Positions 699-15,035 of a stretch of DNA of 16,638 nt are shown here, piece after piece (position 1 is the first letter of the stretch; every line of letters begins with the position of its first letter). Position numbers and translations under genes: made by a program. Origin of the DNA: an uncultured archaeon (GTDB lineage: Archaea; Aenigmatarchaeota; Aenigmatarchaeia; CG10238-14); NCBI GenBank assembly GCA_964392445.1, contig CAYMPD010000016.1, positions 9,858 to 26,495 of the forward strand, given 5' to 3'. A model generated the notes under the pieces. That model saw only the letters and a program-made list of their open reading frames with translations. It was not told the DNA's origin and searched no databases.

Positions 699-944
699 AT
701 GAGACCTATTGAAGTTTCAAGTAATAAATCAAGGATATTTTTTAATACCGAAATTTATGACATGTATCCAATCACAAAGGTTTGTGAGAGATTTGAAGAT
801 GTAGTTAAAATTAAATTAAGGCTCCTTAGGGATGAAGGTTTAATAGAAATTACATTAAAACCGAAAAGTTCCGACGATCTAGAAAAAACTACTTATGAGT
901 TTTGTAATCATGTTCTACATGAACAGACCATGGTGTTAAAGTGA
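699..944 (+). CDS. hxsD: HxsD-like protein (short form, 81 aa)
   Basis: F-N-T-E-I-Y near the N-terminus and I-T-L-K-P-K...E-F-C-N-H-V-L near the C-terminus match the HxsD pattern and align by eye with 12090-12641 (INPKIY...IKPK...DFNNELL). Two genes upstream of hxsB. Confidence 0.7.
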   Translation: MRPIEVSSNKSRIFFNTEIYDMYPITKVCERFEDVVKIKLRLLRDEGLIEITLKPKSSDDLEKTTYEFCNHVLHEQTMVLK

Positions 945-987
945 ATATAGAATTTTCCTCATCACCTAAAAAATATATTCACGGCTA

Positions 988-1848
988 TTGGATAAGACAG
1001 AAAGTCCAGAGGTAACAATAAGTAATACAAAGAAAGCATTGAAAAAAGCCGGTTTGGAGGTTGATTTGACCGACATAACAAATCATTATTTTCTTGAGAT
1101 TCCGGCCTATACTTGTGATCTTGTCAAAGGGAATTTTCATGGTCCTGTGGGGGGGGGTTCAAGGAGTTGGGGTAAGGGACTCACTGAAGAAGAGGTAAAA
1201 GTAAGTACTTTAATGGAGTTTATCGAAAGGAGGACTGGGAACTTGTATTTTATTGATAAAGAAAATACAATTCAGTCTAGTGAAACCGTTTTTGATAGTT
1301 ATGTCAACATAAAGGAAAAAAAGCTCCCTCTCGATCCTTTGATTTATCATAGTGAAGCTAAAGAAGATTATAAAAAACTCCGTAGTCTTATTTCAAAAAG
1401 TAAAATGCGTTATACTAAGTATTATTCTTTGAATGAGGAGAAATGGAAGTTTTTGCCAGATAAATGGCACCTCTTTTTCCATGGAACTAATGGTTTGGCC
1501 GCGGGGAACACACTAGAAGAAGTTCTACTTCAGGCAATGTATGAAGTAATAGAGCGACATAACACAGCAAAAACACTTGAAATTCCTGTAAAAAGATTGG
1601 ATATAAATGATAAAGGTATGGAAATATTACAGGACGTCATGCGTAAGTTCAGTAGAAAGGGAATAAAGGTCAGTCTTTTTGATATTACAACTGATATAAA
1701 AATTCCTACTATCTATTGTGCTTTTTTAGATGAAAACGAGAAAGGACAATTAAGATACGCTCAAGGATGGGGTACGATACTTAATGAAATAGAAAAGTGC
1801 GTGCTCAAATTACAAAAAAGGGATATGAGGTTTTATTTAAGAATATAA
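988..1848 (+). CDS. ycaO: YcaO-family ATP-dependent peptide backbone-modifying enzyme, main ORF; appears internally deleted and frameshifted
   Basis: Motifs SWGKGLTEEEVKVSTLMEFIERR and GTNGLAAGNTLEEVLLQAMYEVIERH match YcaO signatures. The usual RAxxExxQ motif after G-x-G-T is absent. The last ~11 residues (RDMRFYLRI) look like out-of-frame tail. The start is a TTG and may not be the true start (see findings). Confidence 0.85.
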   Translation: MDKTESPEVTISNTKKALKKAGLEVDLTDITNHYFLEIPAYTCDLVKGNFHGPVGGGSRSWGKGLTEEEVKVSTLMEFIERRTGNLYFIDKENTIQSSETVFDSYVNIKEKKLPLDPLIYHSEAKEDYKKLRSLISKSKMRYTKYYSLNEEKWKFLPDKWHLFFHGTNGLAAGNTLEEVLLQAMYEVIERHNTAKTLEIPVKRLDINDKGMEILQDVMRKFSRKGIKVSLFDITTDIKIPTIYCAFLDENEKGQLRYAQGWGTILNEIEKCVLKLQKRDMRFYLRI

Positions 1849-1973
1849 CATCAAAAGAACTCGATATCCCAGTTGTTTATGTTGTTTGTACTAACACAAT
1901 CAGAAATGAAAGCATGACAACACCTAGAAATGAACCTATAAAGCAGAGACTGTTGAACTTTTTATCGAATTGA
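1812..1973 (+). pseudogene. YcaO C-terminal segment displaced into another reading frame
   Basis: The frame starting at 1812 reads TKKGYEVLFKNITSKELDIPVVYVVCTNTIRNESMTTPRNEPIKQRLLNFLSN, stop TGA 1971-1973. This resembles the YcaO C-terminal G-x-E-V...[DN]-x-T...I-P-V-V element. One extra A in the A6 run at 1814-1819 would join it to the main ORF (...CVLKLQKKGYEV...). Confidence 0.65.
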
Positions 1974-2074
1974 TTTTTAAATGAATTTTAGATATTTATT
2001 TAATAGTTAATCACGCACTATGTTGAGTCCTGATCTAGAGTATACCTTGAAGATTTTGGGATTATACTAGTAAA

Positions 2075-2082
2075 TTTTTATA
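2075..2082 (+). promoter_or_regulatory. Putative archaeal TATA box for hxsB
   Basis: TTTTTATA ends 23 nt before the ATG at 2106, the spacing expected for a leaderless archaeal transcript. AT-rich background lowers significance. Confidence 0.4.
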
Positions 2083-2105
2083 GTTTAATTTTATCAATAT
2101 ATGTT

Positions 2106-3545
2106 ATGGCTTTTACCTATTCATCAGATTTTAAGGGTTATGTATTGAATAAGTATTCTAATATGAAATTAGATAAGGATAAAATTTTATTGACGACTAA
2201 TCACGGGGGTTGGGTAATTTTAGATAATGATGAGTTTGAACTTCTGAGGCATGGGAAAGTAGAAGAGGATATAAAATTATACAATCTCTTGAAACAGGAA
2301 GGCATAATAATGGGTGGAGATGAGATTGATAGAATATCTGGTTTTTATAAACAAAAATTAGCTCAATTGTCTACAGCTACAACATTGCATATAATTACTC
2401 CTACTTTGAGGTGTAATCATAAATGTGTTTATTGTTATGCAAAATCGAAACCTCCAGATGCTAAGGAATATGATATGGATGAAGATACTGCTAAAGAGGT
2501 AGTTGATTTTATTTTTCAATGCCCTTCTAAAGGCATCACTTTGGAATTTCAAGGTGGTGAACCATTATTGAATTATTCTATTATAAAATTCATCGTAGAT
2601 TATGCGAACAAATTAAACGAGGAGAAAAAGAAAAAAATAAATTTTAGATTAGTCACCAATTTAACCCTGATGGACGAAGAAAAGTTAGAATGGTTTGTGA
2701 ATAATGATATCGGCCTCCATACTTCACTTGATGGTCCTAAGGAGGTGCATAATAAGAATAGAAAATACTTAAGTGGTAAAGGAAGCTATGATATTGTCGT
2801 TGATTGGATTAAGAAATTGAAAGAGAAAAACATACATATTTCTTGTATGCCCACGGTAACCAAATATTCATTATCACACTGGAAGGATTTGATAGATGAA
2901 TATGTGAATTTGGGTTTAGATAATTTTTGGTTGAGGAAATTGAATGTAGGTGGATTTGCCGTAGATTATTGGGAAAAAATAGGTTACACTTCGGAAGAAT
3001 TTTTGAAATTTTGGAAGAAATCAATTGATTATATTTTCCAATTAAATAAAGAGGGCATAGTTATAATTGAGAATTCCTTAAGTATAATGCTGAGGAACAT
3101 ATTATTTTCAAAGAAATATAATCATTTTGTTTGTCTTACCTCACCTTGTGGTTGTGCTTGGGGACAAGTCAGTTATAACCATAAAGGGGATATATATACT
3201 TGTGACGAAGCAAGAAGTTTTGACGTTTTCAAATTAGGAAATGTTAAGGAAACTACTTATAAAGAATTATATTCTTCTTGGAAAGTGCTTGATATGGTAG
3301 ATTTAACAACGGGTTTATCTTTTGATTGCCAGTCCTGTGTTTATCATCCATTTTGTGGACCTTGTATAGTTGATGAGTATGGTGAGCATGGAAATATAAT
3401 CAAAAAACCCAATTCCTTTAATTGTAGAATAAAGAAAGGTATGTTAAGGTACATATTTGAGAAAATAATCTTAGATGAAGAGAAGTTTCAAATGGCTAAA
3501 GAGTGGGTTGGGTTGAAGAGTAAAAATATACCACATACACCTTAG
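2106..3545 (+). CDS. hxsB: His-Xaa-Ser system radical SAM/SPASM maturase HxsB (479 aa)
   Basis: LHIITPTLRCNHKCVYC (CxxxCxxC), ITLEFQGGEPLLN, TSLDGP...HNKNR, SPCG, YTCDEAR and a SPASM-type CQSCVYHPFCGPC...C. The N-terminal LLTTNHGGW extension is typical of HxsB. Context has HxsD-like and HxS-repeat genes. Confidence 0.88.
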   Translation: MAFTYSSDFKGYVLNKYSNMKLDKDKILLTTNHGGWVILDNDEFELLRHGKVEEDIKLYNLLKQEGIIMGGDEIDRISGFYKQKLAQLSTATTLHIITPTLRCNHKCVYCYAKSKPPDAKEYDMDEDTAKEVVDFIFQCPSKGITLEFQGGEPLLNYSIIKFIVDYANKLNEEKKKKINFRLVTNLTLMDEEKLEWFVNNDIGLHTSLDGPKEVHNKNRKYLSGKGSYDIVVDWIKKLKEKNIHISCMPTVTKYSLSHWKDLIDEYVNLGLDNFWLRKLNVGGFAVDYWEKIGYTSEEFLKFWKKSIDYIFQLNKEGIVIIENSLSIMLRNILFSKKYNHFVCLTSPCGCAWGQVSYNHKGDIYTCDEARSFDVFKLGNVKETTYKELYSSWKVLDMVDLTTGLSFDCQSCVYHPFCGPCIVDEYGEHGNIIKKPNSFNCRIKKGMLRYIFEKIILDEEKFQMAKEWVGLKSKNIPHTP

Positions 3546-4543
3546 TTTTTATTAGGGAATTTAATTACTCTATTAACCATTTTTTCATAAAAGTCATGCT
3601 TACCTTCATTTCTTAGATTTATTATTTTGTTTAGAAAGTCATCTAATGAGCGATTATCAATTATAGTATCTTTAATTTCTAAGTATTTTGGAATTGGGCC
3701 AGCTAGAATATCTAATAGATTCCCGTCATATTTCTCGTTTAGATAGAACCTAACTACGTCTTTTATCCATTCATTTGGCATTGTTCTACCAACAATTTTA
3801 AAATAATCTGTGATTTTCTTGTATTTCTTAAGATCTTCTGGTCTTATCCACCCTGATTTCAATATAGTACTTGGATTTCTCGCCCTTTCTCTAATACATA
3901 TTTCAGAAGCAAAATCTATGAAGTCTTCACTGGATCTTGAAAGATGAGAAGTATAGTTATTGTGTACAATTCTATAGGGACATTTCCACAAACAACCTTC
4001 ATTAACCATTAATCTAATTTTTAAGTTTGTCCCCTCTTTTATTTTTTTGAGCATATTGAAATCTCTATTAATATCATTAGGAACTATTGTCGTTGCTCCC
4101 AAATTTTCATAATATTTTGCTTTTTCTAATGAATCAATACAACAAAAAGCTGATGCTATGATTTCCATATCTTTAAATTCTTTTTTTGTTTTTTGTATGT
4201 AGAGAGGATTGGAAAAAATCGCCCCATTCACCCCAATTTTTCTCATTTTTTTAATAAAGTTTAAAGTTCTTGAAATGAAAGTTACATTATACCAGTCTAA
4301 ACCTTCACAGGTTGAGTTAAACGCCAAATCTACTTTGTAAGAGTATTTTTTACAGAATTTAATCACTTTTCTGATGTGGTCGGGATTTATTTTTTTTACA
4401 TCTCTCCCAGAACCGAATATATCCTGAGGAGCTGAAAGGTAAATCCCCTCTATTCTATTTTTTCCTCCTCTATTTAATTGAACTATCTTTTCCAAGGTTT
4501 CAAAATCATTGTTATATGGAATGGAAAAATTTAATTCGGGCAT
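3542..4543 (-). CDS. U32 peptidase-like family Fe-S protein, copy A (333 aa); candidate hydroxylase
   Basis: NSTC, DINRD, LMVNEGCLWKCPYRIVH, WIRPEDL and FKIVGR fit the U32 family with its Cys cluster and K-x-x-G-R motif. Its stop overlaps the hxsB stop by 4 nt (TTAG 3542-3545). Confidence 0.8.
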   Translation of the reverse strand: MPELNFSIPYNNDFETLEKIVQLNRGGKNRIEGIYLSAPQDIFGSGRDVKKINPDHIRKVIKFCKKYSYKVDLAFNSTCEGLDWYNVTFISRTLNFIKKMRKIGVNGAIFSNPLYIQKTKKEFKDMEIIASAFCCIDSLEKAKYYENLGATTIVPNDINRDFNMLKKIKEGTNLKIRLMVNEGCLWKCPYRIVHNNYTSHLSRSSEDFIDFASEICIRERARNPSTILKSGWIRPEDLKKYKKITDYFKIVGRTMPNEWIKDVVRFYLNEKYDGNLLDILAGPIPKYLEIKDTIIDNRSLDDFLNKIINLRNEGKHDFYEKMVNRVIKFPNKN

Positions 4544-4603
4544 AGCATCAAAAGGTTAATTGATATTAATAAACATAAGTTTTTCCTTTTAAATATAGGA
4601 TAT
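4544..4603. promoter_or_regulatory. Divergent promoter region between U32-A and radical SAM 1
   Basis: 60 bp. Minus-strand TTTATTAA (4566-4573) ends 22 nt before the U32-A ATG. AGGA precedes the plus-strand ATG at 4604. Confidence 0.45.
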
Positions 4604-5596
4604 ATGTCTGGTAGAATTGACCTTCAACTTGGATATTCTTGCAATAGTAATTGTATCCATTGTTTTAATTTGGATATTATTAGGGAATTAAGAGGTAGGG
4701 GTAAAAGCCTGGATAAAAGTATGAGTGAAATAAAAAAAATAATACTTAAAGCTAAGGAAGAAGGTATTGGGGAAGTGGTTCTAACAGGTGGTGAACCTAC
4801 TATCAGGAAAGACTTTTTGGAAATACTTAGGTTTATTAAGGAGAATGAATTTAAAATTAGTTTACAAACTAACGGGAGAATGTTTTCTTCGCAGGACTTT
4901 ACTAAAAAAGTTTCCTCGATAGCCCCAGATATAGGACTTTTGATACCCATTCATCATGTGAATCCTAAAATTCATGATTCGGTGACAAGAGTAAAGGGAT
5001 CTTGGGCTGAAACCATGAAAGGTATAAATTACCTCAAGAAATATGAAATTGATAATATCTTTTTCAAGACAATAATTTTAAAACAGAATTATAGAAATTT
5101 AATAGATATAACAGAATATGCCAATACAATTGGGATAAATAATATTGATTTTGCATTTTTGGAAGGTAGTGGTCGGGCTAGAAAGAATTGGTTTAAAATA
5201 GCCCCACATTATTCAGAAATAGCTCATCCACTAAAGGACTCAATAAAGCTTGGTAATAAATGGGGGATGAATATCAGTGTTTACGACGTCCCTTTTTGTT
5301 TTTTAAAAGGATTTGAGTCGCATATATCAGAGATAAAAAGTTATGTGATTCCATATTTAAGCGGAAATTTCCCGAAAAGAATATCATCAAGTAGGAGTGA
5401 TAATATAATTGAGGAACTTGTTTTAAAGAGGAGAAAGAAAATAGAAAAATGTACATCATGTAAGTATTTTAAGGTATGTCTTGGTGTATGGTCAGAATAC
5501 ATAGAGTTTTATGGAGGTAGTGAGTTTAAACCAGTTAAGGGTGAAAAAATAAGCAATATTAGAGATTTAAGAACTCTTTTAGAAGAATCAAATTAA
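4604..5596 (+). CDS. HxsC-like radical SAM protein, paralogue 1 (330 aa)
   Basis: GYSCNSNCIHC, LTGGEPTIR, QTNGRMF, HDSVTRVKGSW, LEGSGRARKN, VPFC and C-terminal CTSCKYFKVCLGVW...EFKP. Confidence 0.85.
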   Translation: MSGRIDLQLGYSCNSNCIHCFNLDIIRELRGRGKSLDKSMSEIKKIILKAKEEGIGEVVLTGGEPTIRKDFLEILRFIKENEFKISLQTNGRMFSSQDFTKKVSSIAPDIGLLIPIHHVNPKIHDSVTRVKGSWAETMKGINYLKKYEIDNIFFKTIILKQNYRNLIDITEYANTIGINNIDFAFLEGSGRARKNWFKIAPHYSEIAHPLKDSIKLGNKWGMNISVYDVPFCFLKGFESHISEIKSYVIPYLSGNFPKRISSSRSDNIIEELVLKRRKKIEKCTSCKYFKVCLGVWSEYIEFYGGSEFKPVKGEKISNIRDLRTLLEESN

Positions 5597-5639
5597 GGAT
5601 TAAATAAATGAAAATCGTTTTGATAAATGGGATGGTTGA

Positions 5640-6605
5640 ATGAAATCAATGACTATGGTATTAGGTTATACATGTAATAATAATTGCATTTTTTGTATAT
5701 TTGGAGATCAGAAACATAAGGGTATAAGGAAAAGTGCAGAGGTAAAAAAAAGGCTAAAAGATATGAGGAAACAGACCTCTAGTATAAATTTTACAGGTGG
5801 TGATCTGACAATCAGGAAGGATTTTTTTGATATTTTGGATTTTGTAAAACAATTGAATTTCTCGGATGTTTCTATTGAAACTAACGGGAGAATGTTCTCT
5901 TCACGGATTTTTACTAAGCGTGTTTTAGCAATTTTCCCTAACATGAGATTTTCTATAAGTGTGTATCACATTAACCCTGAAATTCATGATTCAGTAACAA
6001 GGGTAAAAGGGTCTTGGGATCAGACTGTAAATGGGATAAAGAACATTATAAGCCATGAGAATAATAACATAACAATAGCTTTTGTTGTCGGGAAGTTCAA
6101 TTATAAAATATTACCTTCGGCTGTGGATTTTTTTTCTGATCTGGGAGTTCAAATTTTAGATTTTATTTTGATAAGAAAAGAAGGTGCTGCAAAAGATAAT
6201 TTCGATGATATTGGTGTAAGGATTAGTAAAGTTGTTCCATATTTAACCAAGGCTTTTGATAAGTTGGATAAAACCAATTTAACCGTGAGATCTTATGGAT
6301 TTCCTTTCTGTACTTTAAAGGGGTATGAAAGACATGTTCAAGAATTAGGGTTGATAGAGGCTACATTGGAGGGGCGGAAATCAATTTTCGATTTTGATGA
6401 TCACATTCAAGATCAATTTAGAGAAAGGTTAAGGGGGAGAAGATCTAAATTCAAGAAATGTATGAATTGTAAGTATTACAATATCTGTGAGGGGGTTTGG
6501 ACCCATTATGTTGAGACTTTTGGAAAGGACGAATTTAATCCAGTCCGTGGAGAGAAAATACAAACAAAGAACGAATTAGAGAAATTATTAAAGAACTCTA
6601 GATGA
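5640..6605 (+). CDS. HxsC-like radical SAM protein, paralogue 2 (321 aa)
   Basis: GYTCNNNCIFC, FTGGDLTIR, ETNGRMF, HDSVTRVKGSW, FPFC and CMNCKYYNICEGVW...EFNP. Confidence 0.85.
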   Translation: MKSMTMVLGYTCNNNCIFCIFGDQKHKGIRKSAEVKKRLKDMRKQTSSINFTGGDLTIRKDFFDILDFVKQLNFSDVSIETNGRMFSSRIFTKRVLAIFPNMRFSISVYHINPEIHDSVTRVKGSWDQTVNGIKNIISHENNNITIAFVVGKFNYKILPSAVDFFSDLGVQILDFILIRKEGAAKDNFDDIGVRISKVVPYLTKAFDKLDKTNLTVRSYGFPFCTLKGYERHVQELGLIEATLEGRKSIFDFDDHIQDQFRERLRGRRSKFKKCMNCKYYNICEGVWTHYVETFGKDEFNPVRGEKIQTKNELEKLLKNSR

Positions 6606-6607
6606 TT

Positions 6608-7555: not shown

Positions 7556-7688
7556 CTAACTTTACTAAATTTTGGATAAATATTCATTTAATCTATATGT
7601 ATTTTATTTATGAATTTAACTATAGATAATAATAATGAGTTGTTTGAAAAGATACTCTCTTGGGCTTTGCTAAACTAAATTGTAAAAA

Positions 7689-8765
7689 TTGAGAATGGTT
7701 GACATGTTAGAACACTTCACTGCCTTAGATTTGGTAAGAATTTCTATTTTTACTATTTTTGGTTCTATCATTTCTTATTATGATATTAAAGAAAAGAAAA
7801 TATATAATAAGCATCTATTAGTCATGTTTATTTTAGGGCTTGTTTTATTTTTTGCTGGCCTTAAATTTTTCTTAATACCAGTTTTTCTAATAAATTTCTT
7901 TCTTTCTCTTTTTTTTGGATTCTTGTTTTGGAAAATGAAAATTTGGAAACCAGGTGATGCTAAACTATTTTCTATATGCTCGATATATTTACCGTTTAAG
8001 TTCTATTCTTCTTTTATAACTTCTCAAATTATTCTGACGAATTTATTCTTAGTGGCGTTCTTTGTATGGGTTATACCTGTTTTAATAAGGACAGATAAAA
8101 ATGCAAAAAAAAAGTCTATTAAACAGGTTTTCAATATAAAGAATATATTTGAGGTATTTTTAACTATTTTCGGTTTATTTTATTTCATAGGACAATTTTT
8201 CACTCTTTTTGACCTTAATTTAATGTACGAATTTGGATATTTCATTACTTTACTTTTTACTTTTTTTCTTTTTGTATTGATTAAGAAGATTTTGCCAGAT
8301 AAAACATTTTATTTTCTGTTATTCTTAACTATAATTAGGTTTTTTGTAGATCCTTCAATATTTGAAATAAATTTTTGGCTGGATTCTTTCTTGAGTATGA
8401 TGGTTATTTTAATTGCTTCTTGGATTGGAGAAATAGCTTATTATATATCTTATGAGAAAAAGAAGGTATCTAATTTGGAAGAAGGGGATATCCCAGTTGG
8501 TTTTGTTACAGAGGGAAAGAGATTAAGAGATTTTGAGAAGTTTATCGAACAAAATTTTGATAATAAAGAAAGAATATTAGAAGATGGTTTAAATGATAAG
8601 GAAATTGGCAAGATCAATAATTTTGAAAGGATAAAATTTATGTTTGTTAAAGAATATATAAGCTTTGCACCATGGTTAATATTATCAACAATTCTGGCAT
8701 CTGTATTGGGTACAGATATTTTCCTATTTTTCATATCCCAGATTTATAGGAGATTTTATGAATGA
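7689..8765 (+). CDS. A24-family (prepilin/preflagellin, FlaK/PibD-like) intramembrane aspartic peptidase
   Basis: Multi-pass membrane protein with first catalytic-Asp motif SYYDIKEKKIYN (D32), second motif WKPGDAKL (D90), a soluble C-terminal insert VSNLEEGDIP and a terminal ISFAPWL helix. The likely start is ATG 7695 or 7704 rather than TTG 7689. Confidence 0.8.
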   Translation: MRMVDMLEHFTALDLVRISIFTIFGSIISYYDIKEKKIYNKHLLVMFILGLVLFFAGLKFFLIPVFLINFFLSLFFGFLFWKMKIWKPGDAKLFSICSIYLPFKFYSSFITSQIILTNLFLVAFFVWVIPVLIRTDKNAKKKSIKQVFNIKNIFEVFLTIFGLFYFIGQFFTLFDLNLMYEFGYFITLLFTFFLFVLIKKILPDKTFYFLLFLTIIRFFVDPSIFEINFWLDSFLSMMVILIASWIGEIAYYISYEKKKVSNLEEGDIPVGFVTEGKRLRDFEKFIEQNFDNKERILEDGLNDKEIGKINNFERIKFMFVKEYISFAPWLILSTILASVLGTDIFLFFISQIYRRFYE

Positions 8766-10617
8766 TCGGTTTCAAACTAAGTATATATTGGTAATTCTAG
8801 TGGTGGGAATCACCATATCTTCCCTTATTTTGCGATCACCTATGAAAATAGGTGATCATATTTTCGAAAAATTAAGTTCCACCTGGCCTATGTTCAGAGG
8901 TGATATATACAGGACAGGGAATTTTGATGGTCTACAAATTGATGAATTTCCTATTTTGATGGATTATGATAAGAGCTGTAAAGATTGTTTAATCTTCAAA
9001 ATTTATGGTAATATAATGGAAAATGAAAGTAAAATAACTGCAAACTTTTCTATAGGGAGAAAAATGAGTTCTATTGCTAAGAAAGTCCCTTTAAATTTAA
9101 GTAGATCTAAGATCGAAGATGAGATAGTCACAATTCAAGTGATAAGATATCAAATATCTGATAAAAACATACTAAAGCCTGAGAAATGGGGTAATTATAT
9201 AATGGACTTTCAGAATGGGTCGGGAACAAGAGAACTCTACTTCCATGAAGGGGAGTATTTTAGTGTGTCACTGGATTTCTTAAATTTTATAGAAGAATCC
9301 GGTTTTCAGGAAAAAGATAATTTTATATTGTCTGACAATGGATTTGACTTTTGGATTTTTGATGGAAGAATTGAAAATAATTTAGATAAAAAATACTTGC
9401 TGGGGAAACCGGATGAAGATTATTTGGATGAAGATTCCATATCTTTATCAAGATCTTCGTCTCGTTTACAAATGCTCACTATTGGGAGTCAAGCTAACGA
9501 GAAAAATAAACAGGATTTTTTTTCAGACGATAATGTTTTTGACCCTTCCCCGATTTTCATAGATTTGAATTCAGATGGTAATGATGAAATAATAACCTAT
9601 TTCAAAAATACTGTTTATAATAATACACAGAAGACCAGAACTTGGGAAGATATGATACTGGCGATTGAATATAAAGAAAATCCAACTCTAATGGAAAGTT
9701 TGGAATTCGGTAATGTCCCTTATATAATGAGTTGGAGATTCATATTATCCGATGAAGTACATACTTCTTTTTCGGCTGGGGATATCAGTTTGGATGGGTC
9801 CCCGGAAATTATTTTCGGCTCTGACGATGGGAATTTATATGTTTTAGATAATAATGGAAATTTGAGATGGAAATTTGACTCTCGGGGAAAAATTAGAAGT
9901 ACCCCCGCAATAGGTGATCTCGATTTTGATAATAAATATGAAATTATTTTCGGCTCTGACGATGGGAATCTATATGTTTTAGACAATAAAGGAAATTTGA
10001 AATGGAAATTTGAGACAGAAAGTATTATAAGATCGAGCCCATTATTTTTTTTGGAAAATTCATCTTCTATAATTACTTTCGGTTCTGACGACGGAAATTT
10101 ATACCTTCTAGATAATAGGGGAAATTTAAGATGTAAGTATGAAACTAGCGGTAAAATAAGAAGCTCCCCTCTGTATTACAATGGAAGTATAATTTTCGGT
10201 TCTGACGACGGTAATATTTATATATTAAACACGGAATGCAACTTAATTAAAAAATATAGAACTAATGATATGGTAAGAAGCTCCCCCTCGTTATTTAATG
10301 GCGAATTTACTATTGGATCAAAAGATGGTAATATTTATTATTTTGATTATAATCAGATTACTAAAAGAATGTTAAATGCGTCGATAATATCAATTCCTGT
10401 GGTTTTAGGGAGCAAATCTTTAGTTTCTACTATTGAGGGGGACATATATTTAATTAATTCCAGATCTGATGAATTACTATTAGATTTGGAAAATGTAAAT
10501 AATTTTTCTTGTTCACCTGCTCTGGGAAAAGTGGAAGAGGGGATAGTATTTTCTTGTTTTTTTATTAAGGAGAGTGCTGATACTAAATATTCGGGTTTTT
10601 TTATTCATACTATATAA
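8758..10617 (+). CDS. Membrane-anchored PQQ-like/FG-GAP beta-propeller repeat protein (619 aa)
   Basis: N-terminal hydrophobic helix (YILVILVVGITISSLIL), WPMFRGDIYRTG motif, five FGSDDGNLY-type blades with RS[ST]P ends, and Ca-binding-like loops DLNSDGNDE, DISLDGSPE, DLDFDNKYE. Overlaps the upstream gene by 8 nt and the downstream gene by 1 nt (TAATG). Confidence 0.8.
   Translation: MNDRFQTKYILVILVVGITISSLILRSPMKIGDHIFEKLSSTWPMFRGDIYRTGNFDGLQIDEFPILMDYDKSCKDCLIFKIYGNIMENESKITANFSIGRKMSSIAKKVPLNLSRSKIEDEIVTIQVIRYQISDKNILKPEKWGNYIMDFQNGSGTRELYFHEGEYFSVSLDFLNFIEESGFQEKDNFILSDNGFDFWIFDGRIENNLDKKYLLGKPDEDYLDEDSISLSRSSSRLQMLTIGSQANEKNKQDFFSDDNVFDPSPIFIDLNSDGNDEIITYFKNTVYNNTQKTRTWEDMILAIEYKENPTLMESLEFGNVPYIMSWRFILSDEVHTSFSAGDISLDGSPEIIFGSDDGNLYVLDNNGNLRWKFDSRGKIRSTPAIGDLDFDNKYEIIFGSDDGNLYVLDNKGNLKWKFETESIIRSSPLFFLENSSSIITFGSDDGNLYLLDNRGNLRCKYETSGKIRSSPLYYNGSIIFGSDDGNIYILNTECNLIKKYRTNDMVRSSPSLFNGEFTIGSKDGNIYYFDYNQITKRMLNASIISIPVVLGSKSLVSTIEGDIYLINSRSDELLLDLENVNNFSCSPALGKVEEGIVFSCFFIKESADTKYSGFFIHTI
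9805..10013 (+). repeat. Intragenic direct repeat: two 74-bp copies (9805-9878 and 9940-10013), 135-bp period, encoding propeller blades
   Basis: The first 30 bp (gaaattattttcggctctgacgatgggaat) are identical and there are 4 mismatches over 74 bp by manual comparison. Confidence 0.9.
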
Positions 10618-11600
10618 TGGGAAGGATTATGGAAGTTGAGGGCTTGAATGTAAATTTTGGACATTCCTGTAATAATAATTGTATTCATTGTTTAATAGGA
10701 CAAGAAATGAGGACAAAATATAGAGACCGGACTACAGAAGAAATCAAAGAACTTCTTTTAGAGGCCAGTAAAAAGACAAATTACACTATATTTATAGGAG
10801 GGGAAGCTACACTAAGAAGGGATTTTTTAGAATTACTTGAATTTGCAAAAAGTTTAGGATTGAATATACATTTAGAAACAAATGGTAGAATGTTTTCTAT
10901 AAAAAGTTTTGCGAGGAGAGTATTTCAAATAGATCCTAATCTTGATATTGTGATGAGTTTTCATCACACTTGCCCTAATATACAGGACAAAATCACGGGT
11001 GTTAAGGGCTCTTTTAAACAAAGTGTTAAAGGTATGGAAAATATCAGAAAATTTGGAAAAGGAGGAGATGGGGAATTAGGAGTGATTTGTGTCATTACTA
11101 AATTAAATTATAAAAACCTATCAGAACTTGTAACTTTTTTGAATAGTAAAAGTATTGATCAATTAGATTTTACTTTAATGAGAATTGGGGGAGACGCTCT
11201 TGAAAATTTTGATAAAATATTTGTTCCAATAAAGGAGATTCAGCCTTACTTGTTTGAGGCTATAAAAAAATCAAGGAAATTGGATATAAGAACAAAAACC
11301 TATGGCTTTCCTTTCTGTACCATAAAAGGGTATGAAAAGTATGCGGTTGAAGTTGGTTTTATTGAAAGTTTGATTAAGAAAAAGAAGTTTGTATTTTGGG
11401 AGTTAAATGAAAGAATTGAGTGGCATAAAACGAGATTAGAGATAAAAACCAAATTATCTAGGTGCCTAGACTGTAAATATTATAATATCTGTGAAGGTCT
11501 TTGGAAAGAATATATGTTATTGGAACCTGAAATATTAAAACCAATTAAAGGTAGAAGATTGAAAAGCCAGAAAGAGACATCGAAATTACTTGGAAAGTGA
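10617..11600 (+). CDS. HxsC-like radical SAM protein, paralogue 3 (327 aa)
   Basis: GHSCNNNCIHC, FIGGEATLR, ETNGRMF, QDKITGVKGSF, FPFC and CLDCKYYNICEGLW...LKP. Confidence 0.85.
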   Translation: MGRIMEVEGLNVNFGHSCNNNCIHCLIGQEMRTKYRDRTTEEIKELLLEASKKTNYTIFIGGEATLRRDFLELLEFAKSLGLNIHLETNGRMFSIKSFARRVFQIDPNLDIVMSFHHTCPNIQDKITGVKGSFKQSVKGMENIRKFGKGGDGELGVICVITKLNYKNLSELVTFLNSKSIDQLDFTLMRIGGDALENFDKIFVPIKEIQPYLFEAIKKSRKLDIRTKTYGFPFCTIKGYEKYAVEVGFIESLIKKKKFVFWELNERIEWHKTRLEIKTKLSRCLDCKYYNICEGLWKEYMLLEPEILKPIKGRRLKSQKETSKLLGK

Positions 11601-11617
11601 TAAAATCCAATCTTACA

Positions 11618-12010
11618 TCAACCGTAATTTAGTACAATATAGTTCTTATGACTAGCATTGGCACTTCTATGGTTGTTTCCATGTCCCCATCCAGCAGACC
11701 CACTACCAGAATTGCCACTACCATGATTACTTGCGTCACAATGGCTAGCTGGAACACCATCAGCTGATGAATGCGCTTCAGAGCTCCAATGCCCCCACCC
11801 ACCCCTCGTACCACTATTATGCGCTTCCGAATGCCCCGGATCACAATGATCATGTTTAGAAGAAATATCAGCGCCCATACCTTTTGAGAACAGATTCAAT
11901 GCTTCAAATCCAGCAAACATTGCACCCATGGAAATCAACGCTTGCTTTGAAGCACCCCCTGATTCTCCAAGTATGAATGATTTTAATTCTTTTTTTATTT
12001 TGGGTAACAT
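11618..12010 (-). CDS. hxsA: His-Xaa-Ser repeat precursor peptide (HxsA-like, ~130 aa)
   Basis: Basic leader and hydrophobic segment, then a G/S/H-rich core with 11 His, including HNS, HWS, HSS, HGS, HRS, HGN, HKN and two HCD. The ORF track starts at TTG 12031. ATG 12010 (MLPKIKK) is preferred because minus-strand TTTATTAA (12035-12042) ends 24 nt upstream; ATG 12019 is also possible. Confidence 0.8.
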   Translation of the reverse strand: MLPKIKKELKSFILGESGGASKQALISMGAMFAGFEALNLFSKGMGADISSKHDHCDPGHSEAHNSGTRGGWGHWSSEAHSSADGVPASHCDASNHGSGNSGSGSAGWGHGNNHRSANASHKNYIVLNYG

Positions 12011-12089
12011 ACTATACATAATTATATTCAATTATTAATAAATTTATCTAGGTAATAATATTTGCAGGTAGGAATTGGAGGTTCATTGA
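12011..12089. promoter_or_regulatory. Divergent promoter region between the precursor and hxsD2, with SD for hxsD2
   Basis: Minus-strand TATA-like TTTATTAA at 12035-12042. Plus-strand GGAGGT at 12077-12082, 7 nt before ATG 12090. Confidence 0.55.
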
Positions 12090-12641
12090 ATGAAAGAAGC
12101 TAAAAAAATAGATGTAAATAAAACTAAAAATGAAGTTATAATCAAAATAAATCCGAAAATATATCCCTTACCAATAGTTTATCAAACATCTGATGTTTTC
12201 ATAGATAAATCATATGTTTTCCTGGATGGTGATCCCGAAGAGGAAATAGAAGTAATGATAAAACCCAAAGAGAAAGGAGTTGATTTAAAAAAGATAGCTG
12301 GTGATTTCAATAATGAATTATTGAATTATTCTGCATATTTCATAAGATCTCAAATGAACAAAGACTTCAGACATATTATATTGGAGAAAGCACTTTCTAC
12401 TGTAGAGAGGGGAGGTAGCAAGATAAAAGAAAAAACTCAGGAAAAGCAAAAGATAGACATAGGACTTAAAGTTCCGTTGTATAAAGCAGAAGAATCCTCC
12501 GAAAATAGAGCTGACAATGAAGAATTCGATGAGGATGAAATAAGAAAAGTCTGGGAAGAACAAAAAGGTGCAATAAAAGATAAGTCTAAAAGAACTAAAA
12601 CCAAGGCCAACAAAGAGGACAGCAATGAAAAGAAAGATTAA
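12090..12641 (+). CDS. hxsD: HxsD-like protein (long form, 183 aa, charged C-terminal tail)
   Basis: INPKIYPL...DKSYVFLDGDPEEEIEVMIKPK...DFNNELLNY...IILEKAL fits HxsD. The acidic/basic tail contains EIRKVWEE. Adjacent to the precursor and overlapping the next radical SAM gene by 17 nt. Confidence 0.8.
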   Translation: MKEAKKIDVNKTKNEVIIKINPKIYPLPIVYQTSDVFIDKSYVFLDGDPEEEIEVMIKPKEKGVDLKKIAGDFNNELLNYSAYFIRSQMNKDFRHIILEKALSTVERGGSKIKEKTQEKQKIDIGLKVPLYKAEESSENRADNEEFDEDEIRKVWEEQKGAIKDKSKRTKTKANKEDSNEKKD

Positions 12642-13623
12642 TAAAGTCGATATAAAATTTGGCTACTCCTGTAATAATAATTGTATACATTGTGTAGTGG
12701 CTGGTCACAAAGAAAGACTTAAAGAAAATAATCTATCGATAGATAGGACAACTAAGGAAATCAAAAAAATTATTTCTGAAGTTAAAGAAAGAGGAGCTAA
12801 CTCCCTCGTGTTCACCGGAGGAGAAGTCACAATACGAGAGGATTTTTTAGATCTATTGAAATACACTAAAAATCTAGATTTAATTATAGGGCTACAGACG
12901 AATGGGAGAATGTTTCATAAAAAGAGTTTTGTTAAAAAAACTTTAAAAATAGCTCCAGATATGCATTTCGAAATCGCTCTTCATTCTGATAAAGAGGAGA
13001 ATCATGATAAAATAACTAAAACTAAAGGTTCTTGGAAACAAACAATAGAGGGTATTAAAAATCTTAAGAGGAATGGAGTCACTAAACTGAATCTGAAGAT
13101 AGTTATTTCGAGATTGAATTATAAAGATTTAGTAGGTATAGTTGAACTTTCAGATAAATTAAATGTAAAACAAATAGATATAGCTTTTCCCCATGGAATG
13201 GGTAATGCTTTGAGAAATTGGCAGGATGTGATCCCAAAGTATAATGAGATAATGGAATATATATTGAAAGCAATAGAATTAGCGAATGAAAAAGATATAT
13301 TTATTAGTTTGGAGGCGGTCCCTTTTTGTTTCTTGGTAGGTTTTGAAAGACATGTTAGTGAGCTAAGATATCTTCATGATTCTTTAGAGGGAAATATCTC
13401 AGAATTAATGCAAATAGGTGACCCAACTTGTGACTGGCATAAGGTAAGATGTAATATTAAGAATAAAACAATAGATTGTAAGGACTGTAAATATTTTTAT
13501 ATATGTGAAGGTGTTTGGGAAGAATATATTGAATTACATGGATCAAAAGAACTTAAACCAGTTAAAGGTAAAAAAATAAGAACTAAAGCTGACTTACAAG
13601 ATATTATTAAGAAATCTAAATGA
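12625..13623 (+). CDS. hxsC: HxsC-like radical SAM protein, paralogue 4 (332 aa), coupled to hxsD
   Basis: GYSCNNNCIHC, FTGGEVTIR, QTNGRMF, HDKITKTKGSW, HGMGNALRN, VPFC and CKDCKYFYICEGVW...ELKP. GAGGA precedes the start inside the hxsD 3' end. Confidence 0.82.
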   Translation: MKRKINKVDIKFGYSCNNNCIHCVVAGHKERLKENNLSIDRTTKEIKKIISEVKERGANSLVFTGGEVTIREDFLDLLKYTKNLDLIIGLQTNGRMFHKKSFVKKTLKIAPDMHFEIALHSDKEENHDKITKTKGSWKQTIEGIKNLKRNGVTKLNLKIVISRLNYKDLVGIVELSDKLNVKQIDIAFPHGMGNALRNWQDVIPKYNEIMEYILKAIELANEKDIFISLEAVPFCFLVGFERHVSELRYLHDSLEGNISELMQIGDPTCDWHKVRCNIKNKTIDCKDCKYFYICEGVWEEYIELHGSKELKPVKGKKIRTKADLQDIIKKSK

Positions 13624-14750: not shown

Positions 14751-14956
14751 TAGTTGAAAAAAAATTCTAACTTGTTCAAAACAAATTTCTTTTGATTTGT
14801 TCTATAATTTATTTAATCGGGAATTTCTAAAATAATATCTAACTAACTGGGGGATGGGATATAAATTAGACACGATTTTATTAATTTTAATTATTTAGTT
14901 CTGTCAACTTTTTCATATTCATTATTGTCTCTTCTAAACTTCATATTCTTTCTTTT

Positions 14957-15011
14957 TTCAGGAGGTCGTGTCAAACCCATCCCCCGGGTTCGACCTTCTG
15001 AATTTTCTTTT
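14957..15011 (+). terminator. GC-rich hairpin followed by a U-rich tract; terminator/attenuator-like, upstream of the large surface protein
   Basis: ttcaggaggtcg (14957-14968) pairs with cgaccttctgaa (14991-15002): 12 bp including one G.U. Inner aaccc/gggtt stem, 5-nt bulge, 7-nt loop, then ttttctttt. Confidence 0.45.
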
Positions 15012-15035
15012 AAATCCAACATAAATTTCAAAGGA

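What the first reader, a model, noticed from the sequence alone, without database searches (positions are those of the whole stretch)
699..13623. Greatly expanded His-Xaa-Ser RiPP cluster in a probable archaeon: one precursor, five radical SAM enzymes, two U32 proteins, two HxsD, YcaO and a prepilin peptidase
Seen: all of these genes lie within 13 kb, many overlapping. Established: the TIGRFAM His-Xaa-Ser system is a four-gene unit (HxsA precursor, HxsB, HxsC, HxsD) whose product I do not know to be characterised. Inference: a single precursor here is served by up to 8 modifying enzymes of three chemistries plus a membrane peptidase, implying an unusually heavily modified peptide and possibly an undescribed branch of the system.
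Basis: partly seen in the sequence, partly recalled or inferred. Interest (0 to 1): 0.9.

Follow-up and report, generated by a model that had tools for sequence, protein, structure and literature searches.

The report
Expanded archaeal His-Xaa-Ser maturation cluster
A small-genome archaeon carries a conserved, greatly enlarged version of the bacterial His-Xaa-Ser (HXS) protein-maturation system, in which one histidine-rich precursor sits among five radical SAM enzymes, its own prepilin-type peptidase and three U32 iron-sulfur proteins, next to a stand-alone pathway that can make prephenate, the oxygen donor that U32 enzymes are thought to use.

Summary
HxsB scores above its curated cut-off, as does an HxsD-like protein. 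Four intact HxsC-like radical SAM genes, a second HxsD-like gene, one His-rich precursor, two U32 genes, an A24 peptidase and a YcaO all lie at the stated coordinates.

Corrections:
- The YcaO is frameshifted and internally shortened, and it is absent from every related cluster, so it is not a conserved part.
- A membrane beta-propeller gene sits inside the operon.
- A third U32 gene and a chorismate mutase plus shikimate operon lie just left of the window.
- The Hxs system is no longer uncharacterised: a 2026 paper shows it is an anti-phage system in Proteobacteria.

The architecture recurs. HxsB, U32 and A24 occur together in eight other contigs (Aenigmarchaeota, Altiarchaeales IMC4 and metagenomes). 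In one of them HxsD-HxsB-HxsA-U32-A24 is a single same-strand operon. A24 sits beside HxsB in about 19 of 22 archaeal loci. The four HxsC paralogues form four old orthologous groups.

The genome lacks the enzymes that use prephenate or chorismate. None of 40 relatives has chorismate synthase or this U32.

I read this as a new archaeal variant of the Hxs system. U32-type, possibly prephenate-dependent, hydroxylation of a protein is the most novel inference and is untested.

The parts
3..659 (-). unk0: C-terminal two thirds of a roughly 320-aa protein that continues across the 10-N gap. It is a conserved companion of the cluster.
   Evidence: The ORF is in frame across the gap. The family has only 6 members among 5.8 billion proteins, and all 6 lie in U32+HxsB+A24 clusters. 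It has no Pfam hit. The model has pLDDT 84, and its C-terminal domain is Mog1/PsbP/RseB-like at a borderline Z of 9.2.
699..944 (+). HxsD-like small protein (HxsD_rel), the likely partner of HxsB.
   Evidence: NF038315 scores 47.9 bits against a cut-off of 41. An 81-aa orthologue sits directly upstream of HxsB in L120, IMC4, L203, L204, L207 and L208.
988..1973 (+). Degenerate YcaO, with a frameshift near the A-run at 1814-1819 and an internal deletion.
   Evidence: PF02624 scores 125 bits over profile 2-212 of 325 in frame 1, and profile 293-321 matches in the overlapping ORF 1797-1973. No YcaO is present in any related cluster.
2106..3545 (+). HxsB, a radical SAM/SPASM maturase.
   Evidence: TIGR03978 scores 437 bits against a cut-off of 370, over profile 7-466 of 466. 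It is 70% identical to L120 and 62% identical to IMC4.
3542..4543 (-). U32A, a U32-family Fe-S protein that lacks the C-terminal four-Cys motif.
   Evidence: PF01136 is above cut-off. The paralogue profile matches PDB 5d88 at E 6e-14. Four Cys (79, 184, 188, 216) are conserved in 32 of 32 relatives, and the C-terminal Cys motif is missing only in this copy. It forms an orthologous group with L120 and L203 at 95/93 support.
4604..5596 (+). HxsC-like radical SAM protein, group C1.
   Evidence: Best models are HxsC4 (139 bits) and HxsC (126 bits), both below cut-off. The CxxxCxxC motif and four C-terminal Cys are intact. It falls in a starred orthologous group.
5640..6605 (+). HxsC-like radical SAM protein, group C2.
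6608..7555 (-). U32B, a U32-family Fe-S protein that carries the C-terminal four-Cys motif.
7689..8765 (+). Dedicated A24 (prepilin-type) aspartyl peptidase.
   Evidence: PF01478 scores 31.5 bits against a cut-off of 26.5. Both catalytic Asp are conserved (D32, and G89-D90 in PGDAKLF). It is one of three A24 genes in the genome, two of which lie beside HxsB.
8758..10617 (+). Beta-propeller protein (PQQ/FG-GAP-like blades), translationally coupled to the A24 and C3 genes. A first-stage note, not checked here, describes a single N-terminal membrane helix.
   Evidence: Pfam propeller families match. Orthologues occur in L120 (53%), L203, L204, L176 and L116.
10617..11600 (+). HxsC-like radical SAM protein, group C3.
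11618..12010 (-). HxsA-like precursor (130 aa). It has a conserved leader MLPKIKKELKSFILGESGG, a hydrophobic segment, and a His-rich core with 11 His.
   Evidence: Translation is. HxsA3 (NF038309) scores 21 bits against a cut-off of 65. A leader HMM finds it and only one other ORF in the genome. It is 75% identical to the L120 orthologue over aligned columns, and an orthologue is present in L204.
12090..12641 (+). HxsD-like protein with a charged C-terminal tail, overlapping the start of C4.
   Evidence: TIGR03976 scores 38.2 bits against a cut-off of 50. The proteins at the same position upstream of a C4-like radical SAM gene in L203, L204, L206 and L208 carry PF27806 HxsD.
12625..13623 (+). 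HxsC-like radical SAM protein, group C4, the likely partner of HxsD.
   Evidence: An HxsD-then-radical-SAM gene pair is conserved in L203, L204, L206 and L208, and the tree places the L203 and L204 radical SAM genes in group C4.
13668..14750 (+). unk1, a probable Ig-like or prealbumin-fold surface protein. Its membership in the system is uncertain.
   Evidence: It has no Pfam hit. The protein atlas gives only a lead to SpaA/DUF11 families at a score of 0.88. An Ig-domain protein that is partly similar (32% identity) lies next to HxsA in L120.

Best explanation
This is an archaeal, envelope-directed variant of the His-Xaa-Ser (Hxs) radical SAM protein-maturation system.

A 130-residue precursor has three parts: a conserved N-terminal leader, a hydrophobic segment, and an 85-residue core with 11 His, 2 Cys and 3 Trp.

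Proposed steps, all inferred from homology and gene coupling:
1. The precursor is modified in the cytoplasm by HxsB, probably working with the small HxsD-like protein encoded just upstream of it.
2. It is further modified by four non-redundant HxsC-like radical SAM enzymes. One of these, C4, is paired with the second HxsD-like protein.
3. Three U32 iron-sulfur proteins add oxygen-independent hydroxylations, most plausibly on His or Trp rings. Prephenate made by the adjacent chorismate mutase plus shikimate operon is the likely oxygen donor.
4. The dedicated A24 aspartyl peptidase removes the leader at the invariant Gly that precedes the hydrophobic segment, as for a class III (pilin-type) signal peptide.
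5. The mature product stays at the cell surface, next to the membrane beta-propeller and Ig-like proteins.

By homology with E. coli HXS, the role may be to block entry of viral DNA. This last point is the weakest.

Shown here: gene identities, intact catalytic motifs, and recurrence of the gene set in other genomes.

My odds for the separate steps:
- Hxs-type system: about 0.9.
- A24 processes the precursor: about 0.7.
- U32 proteins act on the precursor: about 0.55.
- The prephenate supply serves the U32 proteins: about 0.45.
- Antiviral role: about 0.3.
For: Core identities:
- HxsB scores 437 bits and HxsD_rel 47.9 bits, both above curated cut-offs. The four other radical SAM proteins have HxsC4 and HxsC as their best models.
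- All five radical SAM proteins match Radical_SAM (PF04055) above its cut-off. The four HxsC-like proteins keep CxxxCxxC plus four C-terminal Cys, and HxsB also matches SPASM.
- The four HxsC paralogues fall into four starred orthologous groups shared with L120, L204 and L203. They are therefore old, maintained and presumably non-redundant.

Precursor:
- One leader-bearing ORF lies beside HxsB in the window, on C26, and in L101, L102, L104, L114-L117, L120 and L204.
- The Gly before the hydrophobic stretch is invariant. The core motifs KHDHCDPGH, ADGVPASHC and HKNY are conserved between the window and L120, with near-identical forms in L204.

A24 peptidase:
- Both catalytic Asp are conserved.
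- An A24 gene lies beside HxsB in 6 of 6 relatives that have HxsB, in both loci of this genome, in IMC4 and in three to four loci of its relatives, and in L120, L176, L203, L204 and L206-L208.
- The genome has a third, better-scoring A24 elsewhere, so the two Hxs-linked copies are extra.

U32 proteins:
- They match the U32 family and PDB 5d88. Four Cys are conserved in 32 of 32 relatives.
- U32 is interleaved with the Hxs genes in the eight related loci that carry it. In L176 it follows the precursor by 2 bp on the same strand, with an A24 gene two genes further on.
- All 11 Hxs-linked U32s sit in one clade, separate from the methanogen and Asgard copies.

Prephenate:
- A PNAS 2024 paper (PMC10990095) shows that prephenate is the oxygen donor for the UbiU/V-dependent hydroxylations and proposes the same chemistry for the whole U32 family.
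- Here chorismate mutase (PF01817, 41.5 bits, above cut-off), DAHP synthase, DHQ synthase, shikimate dehydrogenase, shikimate kinase, EPSP synthase and chorismate synthase lie within 9 kb of the cluster on the same contig.
- The 95%-complete genome has no prephenate dehydratase, no prephenate dehydrogenase and no chorismate-binding enzyme. All 14 control genomes have all three.
- All three U32 genes of the genome are in this locus.
- None of 40 relatives has chorismate synthase or this U32.
- DAHP synthase also sits beside related U32 genes in six metagenome contigs.

E. coli parallel: HxsB, HxsC and HxsD are needed for a site-specific modification at an HxS motif and for N-terminal cleavage of HxsA by an unidentified protease, and HxsC binds HxsD (PMC13128918).
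Against: - No biochemistry exists for any archaeal member.
- The HxsC-like, HxsD-like and HxsA-like proteins all score below the curated Hxs cut-offs (100-139 bits against 268 and 500; 38 against 50; 21 against 65).
- The minimal archaeal module (A24+HxsD+HxsB+HxsA) has no HxsC or U32. These are therefore add-ons, not core parts.
- In the window the U32 genes are on the opposite strand to their neighbours.
- The Aenigmarchaeota genome that carries a three-U32 cluster (G072) has no detectable chorismate synthase, so a local prephenate supply is not universal.
- Neither type of dehydroquinate dehydratase was found in this genome, so the pathway as detected has a gap.
- The residue at -2 of the proposed cleavage site is Gly, Glu or Asp, not the Lys or Arg typical of archaeal class III signal peptides (typical residues are from my own knowledge).
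- U32A has lost the C-terminal Cys motif.
- The antiviral role rests only on distant homology to a proteobacterial system. That system's HxsA has a peptidoglycan-binding domain, which is absent here.
Confidence: 0.6

Rival explanations
1. The U32 proteins and the shikimate operon are neighbours without a shared job. The U32 proteins hydroxylate RNA or a small molecule, as TrhP, RlhA and UbiU/V do. The shikimate pathway serves some other need, or is a remnant of a transferred island.
For: All characterised U32 substrates are RNA bases or quinone precursors (PMC10990095, PMC6599085, PMC5727448). In the window the U32 genes are on the opposite strand to the Hxs genes. G072 has three cluster U32 genes but no chorismate synthase. 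Most members of the wider U32 subfamily, in Methanosarcinales and ANME, are not next to Hxs genes. No dehydroquinate dehydratase was found.
Against: U32 is embedded in the eight related loci that carry it, from different lineages (Aenigmarchaeota, Altiarchaeales and unplaced metagenome contigs), with conserved micro-synteny: U32 convergent with HxsB and divergent from HxsC. In L176 it is in the same operon, 2 bp after the precursor. The Hxs-linked U32s form their own clade. A 1.2-Mb genome keeps three paralogues, all in this locus. The genome has no other detectable consumer of chorismate or prephenate.
Confidence: 0.2
2. The product is a released, heavily cross-linked His/Cys-rich peptide, such as a metal-binding metallophore-like molecule or an antimicrobial. 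It is not an envelope-anchored effector, and the A24 enzyme acts only as a leader protease.
For: The core is 13% His with two conserved His-Cys pairs and Trp, which is typical of metal ligands. A NosD-like (copper-binding family) 950-aa protein lies in the L120 cluster. Classical RiPP logic is a leader plus a protease plus many maturases.
Against: The hydrophobic segment lies after the proposed cut, so it would stay on the product. In relatives the homologous precursor is a large protein (557 aa in L101) with Thr/Ser-rich linkers, not a peptide. No exporter (ABC transporter or similar) is conserved in the clusters. E. coli HxsA acts as an anchored protein (PMC13128918).
Confidence: 0.15
3. The precursor is a type IV pilin-like structural subunit. 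The radical SAM and U32 modifications harden or cross-link a surface fibre or adhesin. The propeller and Ig-like proteins are fibre-associated, and there is no defence role.
For: The leader plus hydrophobic N-terminus plus dedicated A24 peptidase is the hallmark of pilin-type processing. Propeller and Ig-domain surface proteins recur next to the clusters.
Against: No pilus assembly ATPase or platform protein (PilB/PilC-like) was seen in any cluster. The -2 residue and the lack of a conserved early acidic residue differ from known pilins (from my own knowledge). The hydrophobic segment is short and contains Glu.
Confidence: 0.15
4. Artefact: the contig is mis-binned or mis-scaffolded, so the apparent link between the shikimate operon, the third U32 and the Hxs cluster (and the 'missing' aromatic pathway) is not real for one organism.
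For: A 10-N scaffold gap separates the two halves. Contig GC is 0.313 against a genome mean near 0.345. No relative has these genes.
Against: One ORF runs in frame across the gap, and its full-length orthologue in L120 aligns to both sides. The tetranucleotide correlation of the contig with the genome is 0.984, inside the genome's own range (median 0.988, 5th percentile 0.914). unk2 has a paralogue on contig C11. The Hxs+U32+A24 cluster itself lies on single contigs elsewhere.
Confidence: 0.05

Closest known systems
Proteobacterial HXS anti-phage system (HxsD-HxsB-HxsC-HxsA; TIGR03976-03979; PMC13128918, Nat Commun 2026)
   Same: Both have an HxsB-type radical SAM/SPASM enzyme (equivalog cut-off passed here). 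Both have HxsC-type radical SAM enzymes with an auxiliary Cys motif, small HxsD-type partner proteins encoded next to a radical SAM gene, and a substrate protein with several His-Xaa-Ser motifs and an N-terminal export signal that is cleaved.
   Different: This cluster has four old HxsC-like paralogues instead of one, all lacking the N-terminal extension and scoring far below the HxsC cut-off. It has two kinds of HxsD. A dedicated A24 peptidase is present, whereas the E. coli protease is unknown. The precursor has a pilin-like leader and hydrophobic segment instead of a Sec signal and a peptidoglycan-binding domain. U32 proteins, a beta-propeller, unk0 and DUF483 are added. The hosts are archaea, whereas 99.7% of known HXS systems are in Pseudomonadota.
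U32-family O2-independent hydroxylases (UbiU/UbiV, TrhP, RlhA) that use prephenate (PMC10990095, PMC6599085, PMC5727448)
   Same: U32 domain, four conserved Cys for a 4Fe-4S cluster, several paralogues together (as with UbiU/UbiV), an anaerobic Fe-S enzyme context, and genomic coupling to the shikimate and chorismate mutase genes.
   Different: The substrate would be a protein side chain rather than a quinone precursor or an RNA base. These copies belong to a separate archaeal clade and carry an extra C-terminal four-Cys motif, which is lost in U32A. No activity has been shown.
Archaeal class III signal peptide processing by A24 peptidases (PibD, FlaK, EppA) and bacterial Flp/TadV
   Same: An A24 aspartyl peptidase with both catalytic Asp, and a substrate with a charged leader, an invariant Gly and then a hydrophobic stretch.
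   Different: The leader is long (about 19-24 residues), acidic near the cut and strongly conserved, as a RiPP recognition sequence would be. The peptidase gene is dedicated to a radical SAM operon. No pilus assembly genes are present.
Multi-enzyme radical SAM RiPP clusters (for example SCIFF, ranthipeptides, triceptides)
   Same: A leader-bearing precursor, a SPASM-type maturase, and a leader protease encoded in the cluster.
   Different: The substrate is a 130-aa protein, and much larger in relatives. The combination of five radical SAM enzymes with U32 proteins is not described in the literature searched.

Membership tests
His-Xaa-Ser (Hxs) system | HxsB equivalog (TIGR03978) at or above 370 bits | tested here: met
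   437 bits, full-length match over profile 7-466 of 466. A second HxsB on contig C26 scores 445 bits.
His-Xaa-Ser (Hxs) system | HxsC equivalog (TIGR03977) at or above 267.9 bits | tested here: not met
   The four paralogues score 99.6-126 bits over profile positions about 28-255 of 292. HxsC4 (NF038332) scores 119-139 bits against a cut-off of 500. These are still the two best models for each protein.
His-Xaa-Ser (Hxs) system | HxsD (TIGR03976, at or above 50 bits) or HxsD-like (NF038315, at or above 41 bits) small protein next to a radical SAM gene | tested here: met
   699-944 scores 47.9 bits on NF038315 (met). 12090-12641 scores 38.2 bits on TIGR03976 (below cut-off), but the proteins at the same position in L203, L204, L206 and L208 carry PF27806 HxsD.
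His-Xaa-Ser (Hxs) system | HxsA substrate with repeated His-Xaa-Ser motifs and an N-terminal signal | tested here: inconclusive
   There are five HxS and nine Hx[S/N/D] motifs and 11 His in an 85-residue core, with a conserved leader. However, HxsA3 (NF038309) scores only 21 bits against a cut-off of 65, and no peptidoglycan-binding domain is present.
His-Xaa-Ser (Hxs) system | [quoted passage not shown] | tested here: not met
   The window has 15 or more genes on both strands. The minimal archaeal unit is A24+HxsD+HxsB+HxsA, without HxsC.
His-Xaa-Ser (Hxs) system | Protection against viruses by blocking genome entry | not testable with these tools
   PADLOC models gave only generic viperin-type radical SAM matches. 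There is no host-virus system.
U32 prephenate-dependent hydroxylases | U32 domain | tested here: met
   PF01136 scores 37.5, 32.1 and 30.2 bits against a cut-off of 22.4. The paralogue profile matches PDB 5d88 at E 6e-14.
U32 prephenate-dependent hydroxylases | Four conserved Cys that bind a 4Fe-4S cluster | tested here: met
   Cys at U32A positions 79, 184, 188 and 216 are present in 32 of 32 subfamily members. That they ligate a cluster is inferred.
U32 prephenate-dependent hydroxylases | Availability of prephenate in the cell | tested here: inconclusive
   Chorismate mutase and six of the seven shikimate-pathway steps are adjacent. Prephenate and chorismate consumers are absent. No dehydroquinate dehydratase was found, and G072 lacks chorismate synthase.
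U32 prephenate-dependent hydroxylases | O2-independent hydroxylation of an aromatic ring | not testable with these tools
   This needs mass spectrometry and 18O-shikimate labelling.
A24 prepilin-type peptidases | Peptidase_A24 domain with two catalytic Asp | tested here: met
   31.5 bits against a cut-off of 26.5. D32 and G89-D90 are invariant in four orthologues.
A24 prepilin-type peptidases | Substrate with a class III signal peptide (charged leader, Gly or Ala at -1, then a hydrophobic stretch) | tested here: inconclusive
   An invariant Gly is followed by x-I/A-S-K and an 18-residue hydrophobic stretch in 11 precursors. The -2 residue is Gly, Glu or Asp rather than Lys or Arg. The cleavage site has not been mapped.
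YcaO (ATP-dependent backbone modification) | Complete YcaO domain in one frame | tested here: not met
   Profile positions 2-212 of 325 match in one frame and 293-321 in another, and about 80 positions are missing. No partner gene (TfuA or E1-like) was found, and no YcaO occurs in related clusters.

The most novel reading that the evidence does not exclude
U32 iron-sulfur proteins hydroxylate His or Trp side chains of a ribosomally made protein without O2. A genome that has otherwise lost aromatic amino-acid synthesis keeps, or acquired, a shikimate-to-prephenate pathway solely to supply the oxygen donor. This would be the first protein substrate for the U32 family, a new anaerobic route to hydroxylated residues, and a natural 'prephenate as cofactor' operon. 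In addition, the A24 peptidase would be the leader protease of a radical SAM-matured envelope effector.
Probability: 0.35. Interest if true: 0.9.

Novelty: new variant of a known kind. Interest (0 to 1): 0.78.

Why it matters
- The HXS system was shown only in 2026 to be an anti-phage barrier in Proteobacteria. Its chemistry (+8 Da) and the protease that trims HxsA are still unknown. The archaeal clusters supply a candidate protease class (A24) and a natural series, from a four-gene module to sets of more than 15 genes, that could be dissected enzyme by enzyme.
- They extend the system to DPANN-type archaea and Altiarchaeales, where envelope defences are barely known.
- The recurrent embedding of U32 genes among peptide maturases, and here their adjacency to a dead-end shikimate/chorismate mutase pathway, makes the proposed general 'prephenate-dependent hydroxylase' function of U32 proteins testable on a new substrate class.
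- It also points to an anaerobic way of hydroxylating protein residues.

Tried and rejected
- An exact look-up of the window's HxsB in the contig collection found nothing, so the organism's name could not be obtained. Placement therefore rests on the archaeal SSU rRNA and on named relatives of the cluster: Aenigmarchaeota and Altiarchaeales IMC4.
- PADLOC gave only generic viperin-type radical SAM hits.
- The protein atlas gave nothing for unk0 and only a weak Ig/SpaA lead for unk1.
- Foldseek against the PDB gave no real match for the unk0 model (TM below 0.2). VIA-align gave a borderline Mog1/PsbP/RseB-like C-terminal domain (Z 9.2). I therefore claim no enzymatic role for unk0.
- A simple His-richness screen for precursors in relatives failed. 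A leader HMM worked.
- YcaO as a conserved component is rejected. It is degenerate here and absent elsewhere.
- Mis-binning of the contig is considered unlikely on tetranucleotide grounds.
- I considered whether the Hxs-linked A24 might be the genome's housekeeping prepilin peptidase. This is unlikely, because a third, better-scoring A24 lies on contig C21.
- No precursor was found in the stretches fetched from IMC4 and L203. IMC4 has an N-gap there.
- One genome search failed on a parameter error, and one alignment failed on wrong coordinates.

Full report
**What is in the window**

- HxsB (2106-3545) passes its NCBIfam equivalog cut-off (437 bits against 370).
- The 81-aa protein at 699-944 passes the HxsD-like model (47.9 bits against 41).
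- Four proteins of about 325 aa (4604-5596, 5640-6605, 10617-11600, 12625-13623) have HxsC4 and HxsC as their two best models, but score far below the cut-offs (100-139 bits).
- 12090-12641 is HxsD-like (38 bits against 50).
- 3542-4543 and 6608-7555 on the minus strand are U32 proteins.
- 7689-8765 is an A24 peptidase.
- 11618-12010 on the minus strand encodes a 130-aa protein. It has a conserved leader, a hydrophobic segment, and a core with 11 His, giving 5 HxS and 9 Hx[S/N/D] motifs.

Three points need correcting or adding.
- The YcaO is degenerate. It matches profile 2-212 of 325 in one frame, and 293-321 in an overlapping frame after an A-run.
- A 619-aa beta-propeller gene (8758-10617), described in a first-stage note as membrane-anchored, overlaps the A24 gene by 8 bp and the next radical SAM gene by 1 bp.
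- The ORF at 3-659 belongs to the system (see below).

**Whole-genome context**

The window is the right-hand 16.6 kb of a 26.5-kb contig in a 1.2-Mb bin that is 95% complete. The bin's SSU rRNA is archaeal.

A 10-N scaffold gap lies just left of the window. One ORF (unk0) crosses the gap in frame.

Further left lie a third U32 paralogue, a DUF483 protein, and an operon. The operon encodes chorismate mutase (PF01817, 41.5 bits, above cut-off), DAHP synthase, DHQ synthase, shikimate dehydrogenase, shikimate kinase, EPSP synthase and chorismate synthase.

The genome has a second, minimal Hxs locus on contig C26, made of a leader-bearing HxsA-like ORF, HxsB, HxsD_rel, HxsD and A24. It also has two further HxsC-like genes on C43 and C34.

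The contig's tetranucleotide profile fits the genome (r = 0.984; the null median is 0.988).

**Is the architecture conserved?**

Yes, at two levels.

1. The minimal module. Among 40 relatives of the same genus, family or order (0.3-1.3 Mb genomes), six have HxsB. All six carry A24 and HxsD next to it, and three also show a leader-bearing HxsA-like ORF there. The same module occurs in relatives of Altiarchaeales IMC4. A leader HMM finds exactly two ORFs in this genome, one per Hxs locus.

2. The expanded form.
   - A metagenome contig (L120) is syntenic with the window. It has the precursor (75% identity over aligned columns), HxsB (70%), HxsD_rel, unk0, DUF483, two U32 genes, A24, the propeller and five HxsC-like genes. 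It has no YcaO.
   - The unk0 family has only six members in 5.8 billion proteins. All six lie in clusters with U32, HxsB, the 81-aa protein and A24, usually with a radical SAM plus HxsD pair as well. One of them is in a Candidatus Aenigmarchaeota MAG.
   - Altiarchaeales IMC4 has HxsD_rel-HxsB, two U32 genes, one HxsC-like gene and A24.
   - In L176, the genes HxsD, a 77-aa ORF, HxsB, an HxsA-like ORF, U32, an unknown gene and A24 form one same-strand operon with overlapping or 2-bp junctions.
   - A relative of IMC4 (L118) has two HxsB genes and five HxsC-like genes in tandem, with DUF483 and a weakly matching A24 (24% identity) nearby.

**The paralogues are old**

A maximum-likelihood tree of 24 HxsC-like proteins gives four well-supported orthologous groups. 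Each contains one window paralogue plus members from L120, L204 or L203. All keep CxxxCxxC and four C-terminal Cys. Four distinct enzymes have therefore been maintained, which argues for distinct reactions or sites on the one precursor.

Gene coupling suggests two pairs: HxsD_rel with HxsB, and HxsD with the C4 group. The second pair fits the HxsC-HxsD complex shown in E. coli (PMC13128918).

**The A24 peptidase**

Both catalytic Asp are invariant. The genome has three A24 genes. The best-scoring one is elsewhere (C21), and the other two each sit beside an HxsB, so the Hxs-linked copies are dedicated.

The precursors share M..LPKIKKK..F(L/I)L.E.G.(I/A)SK followed by a hydrophobic stretch, and the Gly is invariant. 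This resembles a class III signal peptide, though the -2 residue is atypical. Cleavage there is inferred.

In E. coli, N-terminal cleavage of HxsA depends on HxsB, HxsC and HxsD, is not simple signal-peptide removal, and has no known protease.

**The U32 proteins and prephenate**

The three paralogues match the U32 family and PDB 5d88. Four Cys are conserved in 32 of 32 subfamily members. A C-terminal four-Cys motif is present in all but window U32A.

All 11 Hxs-linked U32s examined fall in one clade, apart from the Methanosarcinales, ANME and Asgard copies.

U32 proteins (UbiU/V, TrhP, RlhA) are O2-independent hydroxylases of aromatic rings. Prephenate is the demonstrated oxygen donor for UbiU/V and has been proposed for the whole family (PMC10990095).

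Several findings tie this locus to prephenate.
- The only chorismate mutase and the only shikimate genes of the genome abut the only three U32 genes.
- Prephenate dehydratase, prephenate dehydrogenase and chorismate-binding enzymes are all undetected, although all 14 control genomes have them.
- None of 40 relatives has chorismate synthase or this U32.
- Related U32 genes in six metagenome contigs also sit next to a DAHP synthase.

The simplest reading is that the pathway ends at prephenate to feed the U32 proteins.

Caveats:
- No dehydroquinate dehydratase of either type was found.
- The Aenigmarchaeota genome with three cluster U32 genes has no chorismate synthase.
- Relatives are not independent samples.

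**Function**

By homology the system matures an envelope-directed HxS protein. In E. coli that protein blocks phage DNA entry (PMC13128918).

The archaeal precursor has no peptidoglycan-binding domain. Instead it has a hydrophobic N-terminal segment that would anchor it. Propeller and Ig-like surface proteins recur nearby.

I favour an anchored surface effector. A released metal-binding peptide and a pilin-like fibre are the main rivals. An antiviral role is possible but unsupported beyond homology.

**Literature**

Full-text searches found no paper that links U32 proteins with RiPP or radical SAM peptide maturation, none that links prepilin peptidases with radical SAM RiPPs in archaea, and no description of archaeal Hxs systems. 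The 2026 paper reports that 99.7% of HXS systems are in Pseudomonadota and that more than 99.8% are four-gene units.

**Verdict**

This is a real, conserved and previously undescribed archaeal variant of the Hxs system. Its interpretation is right in outline but needs four changes: drop YcaO; add the third U32, the propeller, unk0, DUF483 and the shikimate operon; treat the substrate as a small protein with a pilin-like N-terminus; and take account of the 2026 functional work.

Other first-stage notes of this scan on the same window (pilin-like leader, U32 proteins as hydroxylases, the YcaO frameshift, the four HxsC paralogues) agree with what I found. The shikimate link and the conservation in other genomes are new here.

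Noticed in passing
G000 contig C16:914-7050 (locus L009), left of the window: A complete-looking operon encodes chorismate mutase, DAHP synthase, DHQ synthase, shikimate dehydrogenase, shikimate kinase, EPSP synthase and chorismate synthase. The genome has no detectable prephenate or chorismate consumers, and no dehydroquinate dehydratase was found.
   Followed up: yes
G000 contig C26:1-3606 (locus L010): A second, minimal Hxs locus holds a leader-bearing HxsA-like ORF (cut by the contig end), HxsB (445 bits), HxsD_rel, HxsD, and an A24 peptidase with the archaeal C-terminal domain. It has no HxsC or U32.
   Followed up: partly
G000 contig C43:1078-4669 (locus L011) and C34:128-1120 (locus L012): On C43, a PapB-like radical SAM/SPASM gene is followed by a further HxsC-like gene and a DUF362 plus ferredoxin protein. 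Another, more distant HxsC-like gene lies on C34. No precursor was identified for either.
   Followed up: no
L013:7771-9846 (IMC4); L203:5113-7828; L149:4339-9725: Molybdenum genes recur next to U32 genes of this clade. A molybdopterin oxidoreductase lies among the U32 and Hxs genes in IMC4, and in the Aenigmarchaeota cluster it is joined by a MobA-like gene. In metagenome contig L149 a related U32 sits beside a B12-radical SAM gene, a DAHP synthase-like gene, ModABC, MobB, MoeA and FdhD. This may be the unidentified oxidant partner, but it is unexplained.
   Followed up: no
L019, L026 and other ANME-1/Methanosarcinales loci: Tandem pairs of U32 genes lie directly downstream of a radical SAM/SPASM gene in ANME-1 and Methanosarcinales genomes, with no Hxs genes. 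Their function is unknown. Nearly identical pairs appear in bins labelled Desulfobacteria and Bathyarchaeia, which suggests mis-binning or transfer.
   Followed up: no
window 3542-3640 (C-terminus of U32A): Window U32A is the only one of 32 subfamily members that lacks the C-terminal four-Cys motif. Its orthologues in L120 and L203 keep it.
   Followed up: partly
window 14925-16637: A large ORF without Pfam hits runs off the contig end. It has a 44%-identical paralogue at the end of contig C11 and is probably a surface protein. A first-stage note describes an alternative RNA structure and a uORF in its leader (14849-15011), which I did not examine.
   Followed up: no
L101:4104-5738 (relative G001): In a same-genus relative the HxsA-like protein is 545 aa long. 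It has the same leader, a few HxS motifs right after the hydrophobic segment, and then a long Thr/Ser repeat, so it is a large surface protein rather than a peptide.
   Followed up: partly
L120:12626-13039 and 15127-17979: The syntenic metagenome cluster also carries a SAM-dependent methyltransferase fragment and a 950-aa NosD-like beta-helix protein. Neither is present in the window.
   Followed up: no
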